DNA of 41,990 bases. Source: a bacterium. GTDB lineage: Bacteria; Sysuimicrobiota; Sysuimicrobiia; Sysuimicrobiales; Humicultoraceae. Below are positions 26,680 to 30,763 of the stretch, one piece after another. The stretch spans positions 1 to 41,990 of the forward strand of contig JBGPLF010000002.1 in assembly GCA_041486265.1 (NCBI GenBank). The letters are read 5' to 3'. Each line of letters starts with the position of its first letter. Within the stretch, counting starts at the first letter, position 1. A program made the position numbers and the translations under genes. The notes beneath the pieces are model-generated. The model had not been told where the DNA came from, ran no database searches, and was given only the letters and a program-made list of their open reading frames with translations.

Positions 26680-27792
26680 ATGCCACGCAGGACAAAGATC
26701 GCCAAGCCCGTCGAACACCGCTCATTAGTCAAGCGTTCCCGGGTGCCGGCGAAGGGGAGACCAAAAGGCGCGACGGTATCGCTCTTGGACGTCTCGCTCA
26801 GCGGCGTGAAGGGGACGCGCGTCATCCAGGAGGCTGGACGCCTGCGCGTCCTGGCCGAGATCGGCGGCGCTGGCCTTGACCGCGGGCGGCGGTATGAGCA
26901 GATCCCGGTCATCCGCCTTCGCGCGAAGGAAATTGACCCGCATTTGGCCGCGCGAGAGATCAAGGGGTACCGCCCCGCCGGCGTGCCGACCACGTTCACA
27001 CCGAAACTGGCTCAGCCGACCCACCAGCTTCGCCCGCAGAGAGGCGAGGATCTCGACCGCGGCGGCACGATCTTCGGCACCGACGACCGGTACCTGTTCG
27101 ACGACCATTCGTTCCCCTGGCGGACCACGGGCAAGGTGAGAACCGTTGGCAAATGGGGATCCGGGACCACGATCGGTCCTCGCCACGTGCTCACCGCCAG
27201 CCATATGATCAATTGGACCGGCGGTGCCGGTGGCGGCGTCGCCTGGCTCACTTTCACTCCCAGCTACTTCGACGGCAGCGGGCCGTGGGGCGAGATTGCC
27301 GCGACCCAGGTCATATTTTGGGAGCAGGCGGCCGGGCTACTCTCCGATCAACAGACGGCCTTCGACTACGTCGTGCTGGTCATGGAAGACCGAATCGGTG
27401 ACATCGTGGGCTACCCCGGCTTCCGCTCGTACGATGATGATTGGAACGGCGGCCGTTACTGGCAATACATCGGCTACCCCTGCGAGCTTGCGAGTGGAGA
27501 ACGTCCCGCGTTCCAGGGAGATGGGGTGGTATCGAGCGTCCAGGAGGAAAGCCTTAGCGGGCAGACCGGTTATGTCATGGGCCATTTCAATGACTTCACC
27601 CCTGGTCAGTCTGGCGGAGCCGTGTGGGGCTGGTGGGGCGACGAGCCGTGGCCACGGGTCGTGGGTGTCGGGAGTACCATCGGCAGTACGGCCGTGCAGC
27701 AGCAGACAGGCTCTACCACGGGTGACAACGAGTACGGCGGCGGGCCGGCGCTGAGCGCTCTAATCTCGTGGGCGCGCAGCAACTTCCCGTAA
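26680..27792 (+). CDS. Trypsin-fold serine peptidase (S1, V8/Glu-specific-endopeptidase-like) with a basic N-terminal extension of about 150 aa and no signal peptide
   Basis: Triad contexts GPRHVLTASHMI (H175), FDYVVLVM (D229) and TPGQSGGAVW (S311). SD GGAGGGG lies upstream of ATG 26680. Confidence 0.8.
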   Translation: MPRRTKIAKPVEHRSLVKRSRVPAKGRPKGATVSLLDVSLSGVKGTRVIQEAGRLRVLAEIGGAGLDRGRRYEQIPVIRLRAKEIDPHLAAREIKGYRPAGVPTTFTPKLAQPTHQLRPQRGEDLDRGGTIFGTDDRYLFDDHSFPWRTTGKVRTVGKWGSGTTIGPRHVLTASHMINWTGGAGGGVAWLTFTPSYFDGSGPWGEIAATQVIFWEQAAGLLSDQQTAFDYVVLVMEDRIGDIVGYPGFRSYDDDWNGGRYWQYIGYPCELASGERPAFQGDGVVSSVQEESLSGQTGYVMGHFNDFTPGQSGGAVWGWWGDEPWPRVVGVGSTIGSTAVQQQTGSTTGDNEYGGGPALSALISWARSNFP

Positions 27793-27876
27793 CGCGGAGC
27801 GATGCGACCTAAATGGCGCGGCGAGGTTTCGAAAGAACTGGCACGAACGTAGGCGGTTGCCGAAGAGGAGGATGCC

Positions 27877-29094
27877 ATGCCAGCGTCAGCAAAGAAGTCC
27901 TGGACCTTCATGGTCTATATGGCCGGTGACAACAACCTCGATCCGGACGGCGTCAAGGACTTGAAGGAGATGAAAAAGGTCGGCTCCACCCAATCGGTCA
28001 ACATCGTCGCTCAGTTCGACCGCGCCTCGGGGCACACTGCCAAACGCTACTTCCTCCGCAAGGGGGGCAAGCTCGCAGCCGACGCCGTGGCCACCGTCGG
28101 CAAGGTCAACACGGGTGACCCGAAACGCCTTATGGAATTCATCAAATGGGGCGTACAGAACTACCCGGCCGATCACTATACGCTGGTGTTGTGGAACCAC
28201 GGTCAAGGGTGGGACGACACCGACATCTACGCTGACGAGCGGCACCGCCGCCTCCGCCGGCTTGCCAGCGGTCGTATTCGTCACGCCTTCTTTCATGCGC
28301 CGGTGCGCCGCATGCTGACGAGTGCCACCCGCGACGTTCAGGCTCGCGCCATCCTCCTGGACGATAACGCCAAGGACTTTCTCGACAACCTGGAAATGAA
28401 GAAGGTCCTCGCCGACACCAAGAAGCTGCTCAAGCGCAAGTTGGACGTGTTCGGCATGGACGCCTGCCTGATGAGCATGGCGGAAGTCGGTTACCAGGTT
28501 CGCGAGAGCGCCGAATTCATCGTCGGTTCTGAGCAAACAGAGCCGCTCGACGGCTGGCCTTACAACAGTATCCTCGCCGAATTGGCGAAGAACCCGGCGA
28601 TGGCGCCGAGCGTCTTGAGCGGGCTCGTTGTTGACAAGTACCTCGCCTCCTACACGAGTGACTCGGTCACGCAATCGGCCTGCGACATCTCCAAGGTAGA
28701 CACGCTCGCGACGGCGGTCGCCGGTCTGGCAAGGGCTCTCCAGGCGAGCCTGAACGACGCAGCGATGCGGCAGCGCATCCTGGCGGCACGAACGCAGGCG
28801 CAGAGTTACGAGGTGGCGGACAACATCGACCTGATGGACTTCTGTTCGCTGTTGGCGCAGGCCGCGCCCGGCACCCAGATCGCGCAGCGTTGCCAGGACG
28901 TCGTGCAGGGCGTGCAGTCCGGGTACGTGCTGGCTCAAGGGTCCAAGGGCTCGGACCTGAAGAACTCCCACGGCGTGGCGATCTACTTCCCGACGCAAGC
29001 CGTTTCGCCACTCTACGCCGGGCTGGACTTCAGTAAGAAGACCGGCTGGGATGCATTCCTTAAAGCCTATCTCACCGCCGTCCGTACCCGGTGA
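27877..29094 (+). CDS. Clostripain-family (C11) cysteine peptidase, no signal peptide
   Basis: WTFMVYMAGDNNL start block, catalytic His in LVLWNHGQGW (H108) and Cys in FGMDACLMSM (C197), then GSEQTEPLDGWPY. SD GAGGAGG upstream. Confidence 0.85.
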   Translation: MPASAKKSWTFMVYMAGDNNLDPDGVKDLKEMKKVGSTQSVNIVAQFDRASGHTAKRYFLRKGGKLAADAVATVGKVNTGDPKRLMEFIKWGVQNYPADHYTLVLWNHGQGWDDTDIYADERHRRLRRLASGRIRHAFFHAPVRRMLTSATRDVQARAILLDDNAKDFLDNLEMKKVLADTKKLLKRKLDVFGMDACLMSMAEVGYQVRESAEFIVGSEQTEPLDGWPYNSILAELAKNPAMAPSVLSGLVVDKYLASYTSDSVTQSACDISKVDTLATAVAGLARALQASLNDAAMRQRILAARTQAQSYEVADNIDLMDFCSLLAQAAPGTQIAQRCQDVVQGVQSGYVLAQGSKGSDLKNSHGVAIYFPTQAVSPLYAGLDFSKKTGWDAFLKAYLTAVRTR

Positions 29095-29161
29095 GGCGGT
29101 GAGCCCCGTTTACCCGGGCTCAGCCCGTAGCCGTTTAGGCAGAAACGAAAGGAGGATTTCT

Positions 29162-29389
29162 ATGGCGCGCAAGGTCGTCACTCAGTACGCCGTTTTTCAC
29201 AACATTGGCGCAGGCTCGGACCTCGTGTTCTATTACCAGGGCGGAGGGGCAGACTCGGTCCTGGGAATTCCGTTTACCGAAGCGGCCTTCATCGTGGATC
29301 TGCTCCGCAACGAAAAGCCGATGTCCTACGACCACAGCTTGAAGCGGCTGTCCACCTATACGCCGGAGCCGGTTGGCGAGGGGGAATAG
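29162..29389 (+). CDS. 75-aa protein of unknown family; paralog of the N-terminal domain of the next gene
   Basis: Strong SD AAAGGAGG 7 nt upstream of ATG 29162. Gapless hand alignment to residues 1-75 of ORF 29393 gives 52/75 identities. Confidence 0.7.
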   Translation: MARKVVTQYAVFHNIGAGSDLVFYYQGGGADSVLGIPFTEAAFIVDLLRNEKPMSYDHSLKRLSTYTPEPVGEGE

Positions 29390-29392
29390 GCC

Positions 29393-30763
29393 GTGGCCCG
29401 CAAGATCGTCAGCAGCTACGCCGTGTTCGAGAACCTCGGTGGAACGCGAGACATCGTGTTCTACTACCGGGGCGGAGGCGCGGACTCGGTGAGCGGTGTC
29501 AGTGCCGCCGAGGCAGATTACATCGTAGACCTGCTGCGCAACGAGAAACCCCTCTCGTACGATCACATGCTGAAGCGTCTTTCCACCTGGAGTCCCGAGG
29601 CGGTGGGCGAGGCCGAGATCAGCCCGAATCTCGATAGCTGGCTGAGTGCCCATCCATCTATCGCGGCCAGCCTTGTCTGGGAAGATTCCGGCGGTTCGCA
29701 CGCCTGGTCGTCGTGGAGCGCGGGTTGGAAAGCCCAGCTGCGTCAGGCGTTCGACCTCGCGCGAATCCGCAGCTCGATTTCGGTCGCGGATGTTCCGCCC
29801 AACCAGGCGACGTTGGCCGATAACCAGCAGGTGACGACGATCCTGGCGCCGGCCGACGCCTGGGCCTACTTCAAGGCGAGCGTTGCTCAGACGCTGGCAG
29901 CCGAAATAGGACAGCAGTTGCTGTGGTCGCTCCAGGCATACTCCGCGGACCAGCTTGCTCAGTTATTCGATAGCCGCGAGATGTTTCTCTGGAATCCGTC
30001 GCCCGCCGGCTATCGAATCGACTCGATGCACGGTCACATCGTGCCCGCGCCGCCCGCGCGCAGCTATGAGTTTCTCGGAACCGCGGGTCTGATCGCAAGC
30101 ACGCTGCTCGACACGCTCACGCGCGTCGTCAATTGGTGTCGCGCAAACTTAGTCCATTTCAGTGGCGGAACCACGGCGGCGAACATGGAGGACCAGTGGC
30201 AATACCGCGGATATCCTCCGATGACGCGCGTGCTGGCTGGCACGGCGCAGACCTCTCACCCGGAGTTCGGCATCATGCATCGCACCGCGGGATGTTGGGG
30301 AACGACAGGGTTCCTGCGCGCGCTGTTACGCGTCATCAACGTCCCGGTCAAGCTGGTTACTAACGCGGGACACGCGCAGCCGTGGTTCATGGCTGACTCT
30401 CGATACCTGAGCCATGGCGACGACCCCTACAACCAACTGACCAAAGCGACTCCGCCTATTCCGCCCGGTGAGATTCTGATCGACCAGACGAAGTTCGACG
30501 CGTGGTTTGGAGCCGGCGTCAGCGCCGCCGACAAATCCAACAACATCGGGCGTCGCACACGCGAGCTGGCGATCACCTATCTTCCGAATTATCTGCTCCA
30601 CGCGTATTGTGGAGACCTCGCAGCCGGAAAGACCCACGCAAACGGCCAAGTGTTCAGTATCTTCTCCGTGAACTACACGGTGGCTCAGCTCGAAGCGGGG
30701 AATCTGTGGGGCCGGATGGACGCAAAGATCGCGGGCTTCGGCGGTTGCGCGCACGTTCCGTGA
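29393..30763 (+). CDS. Two-domain protein: N-terminal copy of the 75-aa domain plus a C-terminal transglutaminase-like (papain-fold Cys-His-Asp) domain
   Basis: GTG start 3 nt after the preceding stop. The segment HRTAGCWGTTGFLRALLRVINVPVKLVTNAGHAQPWFMADSRYLSHGDDPY has the spacing and context of the transglutaminase-core triad (C301, H327, D343/D344). Confidence 0.7.
   Translation: MARKIVSSYAVFENLGGTRDIVFYYRGGGADSVSGVSAAEADYIVDLLRNEKPLSYDHMLKRLSTWSPEAVGEAEISPNLDSWLSAHPSIAASLVWEDSGGSHAWSSWSAGWKAQLRQAFDLARIRSSISVADVPPNQATLADNQQVTTILAPADAWAYFKASVAQTLAAEIGQQLLWSLQAYSADQLAQLFDSREMFLWNPSPAGYRIDSMHGHIVPAPPARSYEFLGTAGLIASTLLDTLTRVVNWCRANLVHFSGGTTAANMEDQWQYRGYPPMTRVLAGTAQTSHPEFGIMHRTAGCWGTTGFLRALLRVINVPVKLVTNAGHAQPWFMADSRYLSHGDDPYNQLTKATPPIPPGEILIDQTKFDAWFGAGVSAADKSNNIGRRTRELAITYLPNYLLHAYCGDLAAGKTHANGQVFSIFSVNYTVAQLEAGNLWGRMDAKIAGFGGCAHVP

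What the first reader, a model, noticed from the sequence alone, without database searches (positions are those of the whole stretch)
26680..30763. Co-directional block of three unrelated, apparently cytoplasmic peptidases plus a duplicated 75-aa domain: candidate undescribed proteolytic conflict or processing system
Four consecutive + strand genes, each preceded by a purine-rich Shine-Dalgarno-like element, fit in 4.1 kb:
- a trypsin-fold Ser protease (H175/D229/S311) with a basic N-terminal extension of about 150 aa
- a clostripain-type C11 Cys protease (H108/C197)
- a 75-aa protein
- a protein made of a second copy of that 75-aa domain plus a transglutaminase/papain-fold Cys-His-Asp domain

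None has a signal peptide or TM segment. A DUF4157 double zincin and vapBC lie directly upstream, and the block sits in a decayed mobile-element context.

I do not recognize this gene set as any named defense, toxin or modification system. Protease-plus-small-substrate architectures are the logic of gasdermin/caspase-like, CHAT and ubiquitin-like conflict systems. A protease cascade acting on, or released from, the small domain is therefore a reasonable hypothesis, though unproven.
Basis: partly seen in the sequence, partly recalled or inferred. Interest (0 to 1): 0.85.

Follow-up and report, generated by a model that had tools for sequence, protein, structure and literature searches.

The report
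Three unrelated units, one conserved pair
The four neighbouring genes are not one protease system: they are three independently inherited units that happen to sit together, and one of them, a 75-residue protein plus a transglutaminase-like enzyme carrying a copy of it, is a widespread two-gene module with no annotation in the libraries searched.

Summary
All four ORFs exist, the catalytic residues named are invariant in homologs, the 75-aa duplication is real (69% identity), and no signal peptide or TM segment is present.

The four-gene "protease cascade" does not hold. None of 84 loci carrying relatives of the large protein has an S1 or C11 homolog within 10 kb. None of 80 loci carrying C11 relatives has S1, the small gene or the large gene. 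Five S1 contexts have neither. DNA homology to related contigs stops at the edges of each unit. The block lies in a 13-kb lower-GC run of + strand genes.

Three units are present:
- **S1 peptidase:** a stand-alone V8-like serine peptidase with a conserved 150-aa N-terminal extension.
- **C11 peptidase:** in about 8 of 80 related loci its relatives lie near DUF4157 genes and a contractile-injection-system (eCIS) ATPase. One locus checked by Pfam is a full eCIS payload region. Here it is probably an orphan effector-like gene, along with the upstream DUF4157 zincin.
- **Small/large pair:** an invariably linked cassette. The large protein's core is a very divergent transglutaminase-like Cys-His-Asp domain, about 1,400 clusters across bacteria and archaea, with no Pfam or NCBIfam family. 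All free small proteins carry a near-C-terminal E-P-x-G-E-x-E tail.

My best guess for the pair, which is inferred, is an enzyme plus a prodomain-like regulator.

The parts
29162..29389 (+). Small protein (75 aa), the free-standing paralog of the N-terminal domain of the next gene. It has an invariant LRNE.P motif and an E-P-x-G-E-x-E tail at the C-terminus.
   Evidence: It is 69% identical to residues 1-75 of the large protein. A free-standing copy lies directly next to the large gene in every locus where that gene encodes this N-domain without a signal peptide. The invariant residues are listed. It has no Pfam, NCBIfam, PADLOC or PHROGs hit.
29393..30763 (+). Large protein (456 aa). It comprises the N-domain (residues 1-65), a disordered E-P-V-G-E-A-E linker (residues 68-75) and a 379-aa core (residues 78-456). 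The core has a transglutaminase-like Cys301/His327/Asp343 centre.
   Evidence: AF2 models give pLDDT 92.7 for the full protein and 97.1 for the core. The catalytic motif is invariant. Sub-threshold Pfam Transglut_core hits fall on residues 294-330 in 11 of 23 members. Weak Foldseek hits are dominated by transglutaminase-fold proteins. There are 1,435 representative clusters at E<=1e-3.
27877..29094 (+). Clostripain-family (C11) cysteine peptidase with no signal peptide. It is an independent unit. Its relatives are sometimes encoded in eCIS payload regions.
   Evidence: Pfam Peptidase_C11 scores 1.5e-51, and there are PDB C11 hits. H108/C197 are invariant. Nucleotide homology to related contigs is limited to 27863-29096. 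Eight distinct related loci have DUF4157 and/or a WHD+AAA ATPase gene nearby. L102, the locus checked in full by Pfam, is a complete eCIS operon end.
26680..27792 (+). V8-like (S1B-type) serine peptidase with a conserved, basic 150-aa N-terminal extension. It is an independent stand-alone unit.
   Evidence: Trypsin_2 scores 26.9 bits against a cut-off of 27.6. H175/D229/S311 are invariant, and homologs are full length, including the extension, across phyla. In five other contexts it has neither C11 nor the pair. Homology is limited to 26681-27791.
24873..26237 (+). DUF4157 (Pfam eCIS_core) zincin with a second HExxH domain. It is context for the C11 gene and is not part of the small/large pair.
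   Evidence: eCIS_core scores 1.9e-29 on residues 119-195, with weak ATLF and M91 hits on the C-terminal half. DUF4157 is described as an eCIS marker that is fused to or adjacent to toxins (PMC8213781).
24275..24870 (+). vapBC-type toxin-antitoxin pair (AbrB/MazE-fold antitoxin plus PIN toxin). This is island context.
   Evidence: Pfam MazE_antitoxin 2.4e-08 and PIN 4.8e-15.
26265..26432 (+). Truncated RidA (Ribonuc_L-PSP) remnant directly upstream of the S1 gene.
   Evidence: The Pfam hit covers only profile positions 5-39 of 121.
30787..31257 (+). Cupin_2 protein that starts 23 nt after the large gene. It is not conserved with the pair.
   Evidence: Pfam Cupin_2 6.4e-11. There is no tblastn hit in 84 large-protein loci or 80 C11 loci.

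Best explanation
The 4.1-kb block is a chance juxtaposition of three independently inherited units. It sits inside a lower-GC, all-+-strand variable island at about 22.4-35.4 kb.

**Unit 1.** A stand-alone V8-like serine peptidase.

**Unit 2.** A C11 peptidase of a clade that in other genomes can lie in the payload end of extracellular contractile injection system (eCIS) operons, next to DUF4157 genes. Here, with the upstream DUF4157 zincin, it is most likely an orphan effector-like gene. That would account for the lack of a Sec signal.

**Unit 3.** The only true multi-gene module. It is a translationally coupled cassette of a 75-aa protein and a 456-aa enzyme. The enzyme's N-terminal domain is a paralog of the small protein, and its 379-aa core is a very divergent transglutaminase-like (papain-like) Cys-His-Asp domain.

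**Proposed mechanism for the pair (inferred, not shown).** The N-domain acts as a prodomain or regulatory module for the core. The free small protein carries the same fold. Its acidic tail ends at or within two residues of the final Glu of the same motif in the large protein's linker. I propose that it binds the core in trans as a product-like inhibitor or regulatory subunit. This would keep a potentially harmful cytoplasmic protease or transamidase in check.
For: **Independence of the units (shown).**
- S1 and C11 are absent from 84 loci with relatives of the large protein, representing about 80 species.
- S1, the small gene and the large gene are absent from 80 loci with C11 relatives.
- C11 and the pair are absent from five S1 contexts.
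- blastn homology is confined to 26681-27791, 27863-29096 and 29135-30764.
- No bacterial neighbour is conserved with the large gene except the small gene.

**The pair (shown).**
- The small gene is present wherever the large protein has the N-domain and no signal peptide.
- A second subfamily has an expanded 112-aa N-domain. It keeps a free paralog of that expanded domain, placed downstream instead of upstream.
- A lipoprotein-signal variant with the N-domain has no free partner.
- LRNE.P and E-P-x-G-E-x-E are invariant in free small proteins. The motif is the exact C-terminus in 11 of the 15 aligned, and the other four carry one or two extra residues.
- The linker of the large protein keeps E-x-x-G-E-x-E in most sequences, with a few substitutions.
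- The small protein is the most conserved part: mean identity is 70% against 64% for the N-domain and 57% for the core.

**Transglutaminase-like centre.**
- C301/H327/D343 are invariant.
- Cys301 lies at the N-terminus of a helix and His327 at the start of a strand in a model with pLDDT 97.
- Pfam Transglut_core hits fall on exactly this segment in 11 of 23 members.
- About 24 of 39 weak Foldseek hits are transglutaminase-fold proteins.

**C11 and eCIS.**
- L102 reads tube gp19, baseplate, Pvc16_N, AAA, C11, eCIS_core, cupin, S8, eCIS_core.
- Similar gene orders by sequence clustering occur in L101, L103, L108, L113, L130 and L161, and L117 and L150 have DUF4157-related genes or hits nearby.
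- DUF4157 is described as an eCIS marker that lies next to toxins.
Against: **On the pair.**
- No experiment or structure shows that the small protein binds the core, or that the linker is cleaved.
- In the AF2 model the linker is disordered and is not docked in the active site.
- The transglutaminase assignment is below every curated or statistical threshold: Pfam 14-17 bits against a cut-off of 23, and Foldseek E>=2.
- The enzyme could act on non-protein substrates.

**On the C11 gene.**
- Most C11-relative loci (about 72 of 80, many of them short) show no eCIS genes.
- The window has no eCIS structural gene in 42 kb.

**On independence.** Absence of co-occurrence elsewhere does not strictly exclude a lineage-specific functional link in this one genome. 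S1 contexts were sampled only five times.
Confidence: 0.6

Rival explanations
1. One reading: all four genes form one proteolytic conflict or processing system. The S1 and C11 peptidases would act in a cascade on, or be released by, the 75-aa domain.
For: The genes are adjacent and co-directional with short gaps of 84, 67 and 3 nt. All catalytic residues are intact. The V8-like label hints at Glu specificity, and the small domain carries a Glu-rich tail. The island also holds vapBC and a PLD protein.
Against: There is zero co-occurrence in 84 + 80 + 5 related loci, including the nearest relatives. Homology breakpoints fall at each unit's borders. The co-directional run spans 14 genes rather than four. 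There are no PADLOC hits.
Confidence: 0.05
2. The small/large pair is a toxin-antitoxin-like or defence cassette. The transglutaminase-like enzyme would be a toxin or effector, and the upstream small protein its antitoxin, with a fused antitoxin-like copy on the toxin. This overlaps with the inhibitor model but adds a conflict role.
For: The cassette has a two-gene architecture with a small upstream gene and a 1-5 nt gap. It sits in a different genomic place in every genome, with 75-85% nucleotide identity across several phyla. Some neighbours are TA or defence genes: BrnT/BrnA and DUF4258 in L085, ThsB_TIR in L001, and vapBC and PLD in the window. A transglutaminase-like domain is a validated eCIS toxin domain, EAT14 (PMC11297309).
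Against: There is no PADLOC hit. It was not found on plasmids or viral contigs. Many neighbourhoods are plain housekeeping or metabolic genes. In the second subfamily the small gene is downstream. Toxicity is untested.
Confidence: 0.15
3. The small protein is a substrate or carrier, not a regulator. Its conserved C-terminal tail would be processed, trimmed or used as a scaffold by the transglutaminase-like enzyme, as with a ubiquitin/Pup-like or RiPP/scaffold-peptide system, or a vasohibin-type carboxypeptidase. The N-domain of the enzyme would be a docking copy.
For: The E-P-x-G-E-x-E tail is invariant, and a few sequences carry 1-2 extra residues after the last Glu: H, GV and GL. The small protein is the most conserved component. 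Transglutaminase-fold enzymes include tail-trimming peptidases and protein cross-linkers (own knowledge).
Against: No ligase, ATP-grasp, E1-like or other tailoring gene is conserved nearby. A free C-terminal carboxylate cannot be an acyl donor for a Cys enzyme. The tail has no Gln for a classical transglutaminase reaction.
Confidence: 0.12
4. The small protein is simply an obligatory structural subunit. It would form a pseudo-homodimer with the N-domain of a metabolic or housekeeping-type hydrolase and have no inhibitory role.
For: The free copy and the N-domain co-diverge. In divergent lineages and in the second subfamily each small protein groups with its own partner's N-domain. Within-genome identity is 61-77%.
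Against: This does not explain the invariant acidic tail, or why the secreted variant lacks the partner. The tree is built from 75 residues and is poorly resolved.
Confidence: 0.08

Closest known systems
Transglutaminase-like superfamily (Pfam PF01841 Transglut_core; papain-like Cys-His-Asp enzymes such as TG2/FXIII, PNGase, TgpA and the 3ISR-type putative cysteine proteases)
   Same: The large protein has the G-C-W-G-x-x-G-F...N-[IV]-P...G-H-A...H-G-D-D-P pattern. The Cys lies at a helix N-terminus and the His on the following strand. Sub-threshold Pfam hits fall on that exact segment, and weak Foldseek hits are mostly transglutaminase-fold proteins.
   Different: The scores are below the Pfam cut-off and Foldseek E-values are >=2. 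About 250 of the 379 core residues match nothing in PDB (TM-score normalised to the query <=0.25). There is no Pfam or NCBIfam family. The N-terminal domain with its free-standing paralog has no counterpart that I know of in this superfamily.
Propeptide-like protease inhibitors encoded beside their protease: SpeB-Spi of Streptococcus pyogenes (Kagawa et al. 2005, cited in PMC1298937), and MEROPS I9/I29-type inhibitors
   Same: Both have a free-standing small protein that is a paralog of the enzyme's own N-terminal domain and is encoded adjacent to it. In both cases a cytoplasmic safeguard is plausible. The homology of Spi to the SpeB propeptide is from my own knowledge and was not tested here.
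   Different: The folds and catalytic families are unrelated. Here the enzyme itself has no export signal. Neither cleavage of the linker nor inhibition has been shown.
Vasohibin-SVBP (transglutaminase-like tubulin carboxypeptidase with a small obligate partner)
   Same: Both combine a transglutaminase-like Cys enzyme with a protein of about 70 aa. Both involve acidic Glu-rich C-terminal tails. This comparison rests on my own knowledge; vasohibins are cited as transglutaminase-like proteases in PMC11297309.
   Different: SVBP is not a paralog of a vasohibin domain, the system is eukaryotic, and no sequence relationship was detected.
eCIS-associated toxins and DUF4157 (eCIS_core) genes (Geller et al. 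2021, PMC8213781; Danov et al. 2024, PMC11297309)
   Same: The window has a DUF4157 zincin 1.6 kb upstream of the C11 gene. Relatives of that C11 gene at 71-75% identity lie just after the Pvc16/AAA genes and beside DUF4157 genes in eCIS operons.
   Different: The window has no tube, sheath, baseplate or AAA genes. C11 is not mentioned in the main text of either paper. The small/large pair and the S1 gene never lie near DUF4157 genes in the loci examined.
Clostripain family C11 (for example PmC11, and the structures 6MZO, 6N9J and 3UWS)
   Same: The full-length Pfam match and the conserved His/Cys dyad agree.
   Different: There is no signal peptide, and the sequence is only distantly related to characterised members (NCBIfam clostripain 55.7 bits against a cut-off of 550).
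V8-like/S1B glutamyl endopeptidases (COG3591; PDB 1P3C)
   Same: The His/Asp/Ser triad and the TPGQSGG motif are present. JGI annotates homologs as V8-like.
   Different: Profile scores are marginal. A conserved 150-aa basic N-terminal extension of unknown role is present, and there is no signal peptide.

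Membership tests
Single four-gene system (S1 + C11 + small + large) | Components recur together in other genomes | tested here: not met
   0 of 84, 0 of 80 and 0 of 5 related loci show co-occurrence. Homology breakpoints fall at unit borders.
Small/large two-gene cassette | A free-standing paralog of the N-domain lies next to every signal-less large gene that has that N-domain | tested here: met
   About 20 loci of the main subfamily have the small gene upstream with a gap of 1-5 nt in most (about 20-50 nt in L004 and L026). Three loci of the second subfamily have it downstream. Adjacent NCBI locus tags agree.
Transglutaminase-like superfamily (PF01841) | Profile match above the curated threshold | tested here: not met
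   The best scores are 14-17 bits against a gathering score of 23. Eleven of 23 members hit at E<=5, with a best E-value of 0.0023. The window protein itself has no hit.
Transglutaminase-like superfamily (PF01841) | Conserved Cys-His-Asp, with Cys at a helix N-terminus and His/Asp on the following strands | tested here: met
   C301, H327 and D343 are invariant. In the full-length model the relevant elements are helix 300-313 and strands 319-324 and 327-332, and the core-only model reproduces them at pLDDT 97.
Transglutaminase-like superfamily (PF01841) | Significant fold similarity to solved transglutaminase-fold structures | tested here: inconclusive
   No Foldseek hit is better than E=2. About 24 of the 39 hits are TG2, FXIII, XPC, 3ISR or TgpA. 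A PDB sequence-profile search found nothing.
Peptidase C11 (clostripain family) | Pfam match above threshold and a catalytic His/Cys dyad | tested here: met
   176.5 bits against a cut-off of 25.8. H108/C197 are invariant.
S1/PA-clan serine peptidase | Profile match above threshold | tested here: inconclusive
   Trypsin_2 scores 26.9 bits against a cut-off of 27.6. Precomputed Pfam lists PF13365 for the same protein and for many homologs.
S1/PA-clan serine peptidase | His-Asp-Ser triad conserved | tested here: met
   H175, D229 and S311 are invariant in 11 sequences.
eCIS locus / eCIS-associated toxin | eCIS structural genes (tube, sheath, baseplate, AAA) in the locus | tested here: not met
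   None among the larger window ORFs scanned with Pfam.
eCIS locus / eCIS-associated toxin | Adjacency to DUF4157 genes, and relatives located in eCIS payload regions | tested here: met
   This applies to the C11 gene only. The window has a DUF4157 gene at 24873-26237. Eight distinct C11-relative loci have DUF4157 and/or AAA genes nearby, and L102 is a full eCIS end.
Known anti-phage defence systems (PADLOC-DB v2) | Match to any defence-system protein model | tested here: not met
   No hit for S1, C11, the small protein, the large protein or DUF4157. Only the downstream PLD protein has weak ZacB/DrmC hits.
Propeptide-like inhibitor / zymogen pair | Cleavage of the N-domain at the linker, and inhibition of the core by the free paralog | not testable with these tools
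   Only the architecture and the shared ExxGExE tail are shown. The tools return no interface or PAE data.
Type II toxin-antitoxin | Toxicity of the large protein that is neutralised by the small one | not testable with these tools
   The architecture and the variable genomic location are compatible. No functional data are available.

The most novel reading that the evidence does not exclude
The small/large pair may be a new kind of self-contained, horizontally spreading module. In it, a cytoplasmic transglutaminase-like protease or transamidase would be gated by a free copy of its own N-terminal domain. The invariant E-P-x-G-E-x-E tail would plug the active site like a cleaved-prodomain product. 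Release of this brake under stress or infection would unleash the enzyme, making the pair a prodomain-mimic toxin-antitoxin or defence system built on a protein family with no annotation in the libraries searched and about 1,400 clusters in bacteria and archaea.
Probability: 0.2. Interest if true: 0.7.

Novelty: new variant of a known kind. Interest (0 to 1): 0.45.

Why it matters
**Avoiding a wrong annotation.** The result removes an attractive but unsupported "three-protease conflict system". It shows how variable islands can mimic operons by stacking unrelated single-gene units on one strand.

**A concrete target.** The work isolates a specific, testable object: a strictly linked enzyme/small-partner cassette. 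Its catalytic core defines a large family with no Pfam or NCBIfam model, present in many bacterial phyla and several archaeal lineages, in cytoplasmic, membrane-anchored and surface-protein architectures. If the free paralog acts as a prodomain-like inhibitor, it would be a transglutaminase-fold counterpart of SpeB-Spi-type regulation and a possible new toxin-antitoxin logic.

**A candidate eCIS payload.** The link between this C11 clade and eCIS payload regions adds a candidate effector class to contractile injection systems. C11 is not mentioned in the main text of the two eCIS toxin surveys consulted.

Tried and rejected
**Programmed stop-codon read-through joining the small and large genes.** In the window they are in frame, separated by TAG plus one codon. 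I rejected this because the stop codon is TAG, TAA or TGA in different loci, and the gap length and frame also vary.

**A second 75-aa plus 364-aa pair in L087 as a paralogous cassette.** I rejected this because the 75-aa protein is an acyl carrier protein (PP-binding).

**An ancestral RidA-S1-cupin block, as in Kribbella L089, with C11 and the pair inserted.** This is not supported. The window's RidA fragment and cupin have no detectable similarity to the Kribbella genes.

**A conserved promoter, operator or riboswitch upstream of the small gene.** None was found; only the RBS is shared. Promoter and terminator scans and repeat searches in the window were uninformative. No tRNA gene marks the island.

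**Phage or plasmid carriage.**
- IMG/VR viral contigs gave no hits for the large protein, S1 or C11.
- The large protein has no hit in PLSDB plasmids.
- PHROGs gave no hits.

**Fold assignment of the N-domain.** Only insignificant hits of about 50 residues were found, to chemokine-like, PH-like and DUF1508-like small domains, with E>=0.09. I do not assign a fold.

**Conserved neighbours of the core family.** Only shadow ORFs, generic ABC-F ATPases and vertically inherited synteny in Methanobacteriaceae turned up.

**Literature search for a described transglutaminase-like enzyme plus small paralog pair.** It found nothing relevant.

Full report
**1. Observation**

All are on the + strand and each has an RBS-like purine run.

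The family assignments differ in strength.
- The C11 assignment is unambiguous. Pfam Peptidase_C11 scores 1.5e-51, there are PDB C11 hits, and His108/Cys197 are invariant.
- The serine peptidase is marginal by profile. Trypsin_2 scores 26.9 bits against a cut-off of 27.6, and the best PDB hit is a glutamyl endopeptidase at E=0.012.
- His175/Asp229/Ser311 are nevertheless invariant in eleven homologs of the serine peptidase.

The 75-aa protein is 69% identical to residues 1-75 of the next protein. Cys301, His327 and His341/Asp343 of the large protein are invariant in 23 and in 36 homologs. None of the four proteins has a hydrophobic segment compatible with a signal peptide or TM helix.

Upstream lie a DUF4157 (Pfam eCIS_core) protein with a second HExxH motif, and a MazE-type/PIN vapBC pair. 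Every gene I assigned from 22789 to 35338 is on the + strand, 14 genes in all. They lie in a region of lower G+C (0.57-0.63 against 0.65-0.70 for most of the flanks). Co-directionality of these four genes therefore carries little weight.

**2. Is it one system?**

*Large protein.* It has 317 database relatives, all named "hypothetical" or left unnamed and none with a Pfam domain. A scan of one genome per species returned 80 loci from many bacterial phyla and several archaeal lineages.
- tblastn of the window's S1, C11, DUF4157, vapBC, cupin, MsrB and PLD proteins against these 80 loci plus four further loci, each with about 10 kb of flank where available, gave no hits. The only other hit was between the window's Kelch protein and one locus, L072.
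- The nearest relatives have the small gene but no peptidase genes nearby. These are at 88% identity (L085) and 82% identity (L087).
- The same holds in Chlorobium phaeobacteroides, Nibrella and a Desulfobacteraceae genome.

*C11 peptidase.* Eighty metagenomic loci carry relatives at 51-85% identity. None contains S1, the small gene or the large gene.

*S1 peptidase.* Five distinct contexts were examined, including Kribbella amoyensis and an Anaerolineales MAG. None contains C11 or the pair.

*Nucleotide level.* Similarity between the window and related contigs stops at unit borders: 26681-27791 for S1, 27863-29096 for C11 and 29135-30764 for the pair.

The block is therefore a mosaic of three independently distributed units. 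A four-gene cascade is not supported.

**3. The real module: small plus large**

*Linkage.* Wherever the large protein carries the N-terminal domain and no signal peptide, a free-standing copy of that domain is encoded next to it. In about 20 loci of the main subfamily the copy lies immediately upstream. The gap is 1-5 nt in most, and about 20-50 nt in L004 and L026. The stop codon varies among TAG, TAA and TGA, which excludes read-through.

*Second subfamily.* L013-L015 come from a Deltaproteobacteria MAG, a Bryobacteraceae MAG and an Acidobacteriota MAG.
- Here the N-domain is expanded to about 112 aa.
- A free paralog of about 110 aa, of that expanded form, lies immediately downstream.
- It is 40-45% identical to its partner's N-domain.
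- Retention of the partnership with a different gene order is strong evidence for a functional link.

*Secreted variant.* A lipoprotein-signal variant (Larkinella, L172) has the N-domain but no free partner.

*Conserved motifs.* Across 15 diverse free small proteins the invariant residues fall into two motifs. One is L-R-N-E-x-P, at the end of the single helix. The other is E-P-x-G-E-x-E.
- The second motif is the exact C-terminus in 11 of the 15 sequences.
- The other four carry one or two extra residues: H, GV or GL.
- The large protein keeps E-x-x-G-E-x-E at the same position in most sequences, with a few substitutions.
- There the motif lies in a linker that AF2 leaves disordered (residues 68-75, pLDDT below 50).

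*Relative conservation.* Mean pairwise identity is 70% for the small protein, 64% for the N-domain and 57% for the core.

*Tree.* In a low-resolution NJ tree, free and fused copies form separate clades among close relatives. In divergent lineages each groups with its own partner, which is compatible with co-evolution or gene conversion.

*Context.* Upstream DNA is not conserved beyond the RBS. No other bacterial neighbour is conserved.

**4. What is the core?**

A profile search of 1.84 billion representative proteins found 1,435 clusters at E<=1e-3 and 682 at E<=1e-30.

The conserved unit is the core of about 375 aa (residues 78-456). It is combined with many different N-termini and partner domains:
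- signal or TAT peptides and TM anchors;
- Lys/Pro-rich tails;
- an archaeal helical domain;
- FG-GAP, NosD/beta-helix, Big_1, CARDB and LRR domains, and T9SS sorting domains.

Many members are therefore extracellular. The form with the small domain is a cytoplasmic-looking subfamily.

AF2 models are very confident: pLDDT 92.7 for the full protein and 97.1 with pTM 0.94 for the core. No PDB or BFVD structure matches significantly, and a PDB sequence-profile search is empty.

Three weak lines of evidence agree on a transglutaminase-like centre.
- The motif T-A-G-C-W-G-T-T-G-F...N-[IV]-P...G-H-A...S-H-G-D-D-P-Y is present. Cys301 lies at a helix N-terminus and His327 at the start of the next hairpin strand.
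- Pfam Transglut_core hits occur in 11 of 23 members. They always fall on residues about 294-330 and profile positions 46-82, but score only 14-17 bits against a cut-off of 23.
- About 24 of the 39 sub-significant Foldseek hits to the core are transglutaminase-fold proteins, namely TG2, factor XIII, XPC, 3ISR and TgpA.

I therefore treat the core as a new, very divergent family of the transglutaminase/papain-like superfamily. About 250 of its residues match nothing solved.

**5. Mechanism**

The following points are shown:
- the linkage of the two genes;
- the shared fold of the small protein and the N-domain;
- the shared acidic tail;
- the intact Cys-His-Asp centre;
- the absence of export signals.

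The rest is inferred. The free small protein ends at or near the final Glu of the motif that also lies in the large protein's N-domain-core linker. It therefore looks like a pre-cleaved N-domain.

The best-fitting precedent is the propeptide-like inhibitor encoded beside its protease. SpeB-Spi is the example (Kagawa 2005, cited in PMC1298937). That Spi resembles the SpeB propeptide is from my own knowledge. Cleaved prodomains whose C-terminus remains in the active site as a product-like inhibitor are a related case, also from my own knowledge.

I therefore propose that the N-domain is a regulatory or prodomain-like module and that the small protein is a trans-acting brake or subunit. I put about 35-40% on that specific mechanism and about 85% on the statement that the pair, not the four-gene block, is the functional unit.

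The rivals are a TA or defence role, a substrate or carrier role for the small protein, and a purely structural subunit. They are listed with their tests.

**6. The other two units**

*C11 peptidase.* Relatives lie next to a WHD+AAA ATPase gene and/or DUF4157 genes in eight distinct loci: L101, L102/L103, L108, L113, L117, L130, L150 and L161.
- In L102 the gene order is tail tube gp19, T4 baseplate, Pvc16_N, AAA, C11, eCIS_core, cupin, S8 subtilase, eCIS_core.
- This is a canonical eCIS operon end, where payloads are encoded.
- DUF4157 is described as an eCIS marker that is fused to or adjacent to toxins (PMC8213781).
- The window has a DUF4157 zincin but no eCIS structural genes.
- The C11 gene and the zincin are therefore best read as orphan effector-like genes. 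That would also explain the missing Sec signal. This is inference.

*S1 peptidase.* It is a stand-alone gene, conserved full length including its basic 150-aa extension, in Actinomycetota, Bacteroidota and Chloroflexota. Its neighbours vary and sometimes include transposases.

**7. Novelty and verdict**

The headline hypothesis is refuted by its own criterion.

What remains is a real two-gene module with no annotation in the libraries searched. It is built on a large family with no Pfam or NCBIfam model and a divergent transglutaminase-like centre. Its architecture is unusual: an enzyme plus a free paralog of its own N-domain, both bearing an E-x-x-G-E-x-E tail that is invariant in the free copies. 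I rate it a new variant of a known kind and give it moderate interest (0.45).

Noticed in passing
window 22400-35400: Every gene I assigned in this stretch is on the + strand, 14 in all: PRiA4_ORF3, an F420H2-dependent quinone reductase, vapBC, DUF4157, a RidA remnant, S1, C11, the pair, cupin, MsrB, a Kelch protein and a PLD protein. G+C is 0.57-0.63 against 0.65-0.70 for most of the flanks. It looks like a variable island of horizontally acquired single units. No tRNA gene or clear integrase marks its ends.
   Followed up: partly
window 26265-26432: A truncated RidA (Ribonuc_L-PSP) remnant of 55 aa covers only profile positions 5-39 of 121. It lies directly upstream of the S1 gene. RidA genes also lie next to the S1 homolog in Kribbella (L089) and next to the pair in Nibrella (L003), but no sequence similarity links them.
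   Followed up: partly
window 31847-33535: A Kelch-repeat protein of 562 aa has a Cys-rich segment (CCHDTRKVDPCCCNEEPCC) and a Lys-rich C-terminal tail. The tail is encoded partly by a tandem 32-nt repeat at 33457-33520.
   Followed up: no
window 33557-35338: A PLD-family protein with two PLDc_2 stretches has weak PADLOC hits to ZacB, DrmC and PbeA (best 2e-08). It is the only defence-like hit in the island apart from vapBC.
   Followed up: no
L102 255-12609 (also L103, L108, L113): The payload end of this eCIS operon holds several peptidase genes interleaved with DUF4157 genes. After Pvc16_N and the AAA ATPase come C11, eCIS_core, Cupin_2, an S8 subtilase with a fervidolysin-like prodomain, and eCIS_core. 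In L101, L108 and L130 a conserved 87-111 aa ORF of unknown family lies between the AAA gene and the next gene (C11 in L101 and L108, a DUF4157 gene in L130).
   Followed up: partly
L037-L070 (Methanobacteriaceae loci): Archaeal members of the core family carry a different, helical N-terminal domain of about 63 aa. In many loci they are followed within about 50 nt by a conserved 166-aa protein of unknown function. This may be an analogous partner.
   Followed up: no
L055, L057, L065, L073: Proteobacterial core-family members have extremely basic Lys/Pro-rich N-terminal tails (for example KKPKKPKHHQQHKPKKKKK...) in place of the small domain.
   Followed up: no
L173 1009-2661 (P0095 and relatives P0093, P0104, P0106, P0111): Core-family proteins of 550-556 aa have an N-terminal region of repeated W-x-x-C-x-x-C-x-x-L-W motifs that look like zinc ribbons, instead of the small domain.
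   Followed up: no
window 29387-29395: In the window the small and large genes are in the same reading frame, separated only by TAG and one codon (GCC). The same in-frame layout occurs in several other loci but not in all of them.
   Followed up: yes
large protein residues 249, 406, 452 (window about 30137, 30608, 30746): Three further cysteines are conserved across the family besides the catalytic Cys301. Cys406 and Cys452 are invariant, and Cys249 is nearly invariant. They may form a metal site or a disulfide.
   Followed up: no
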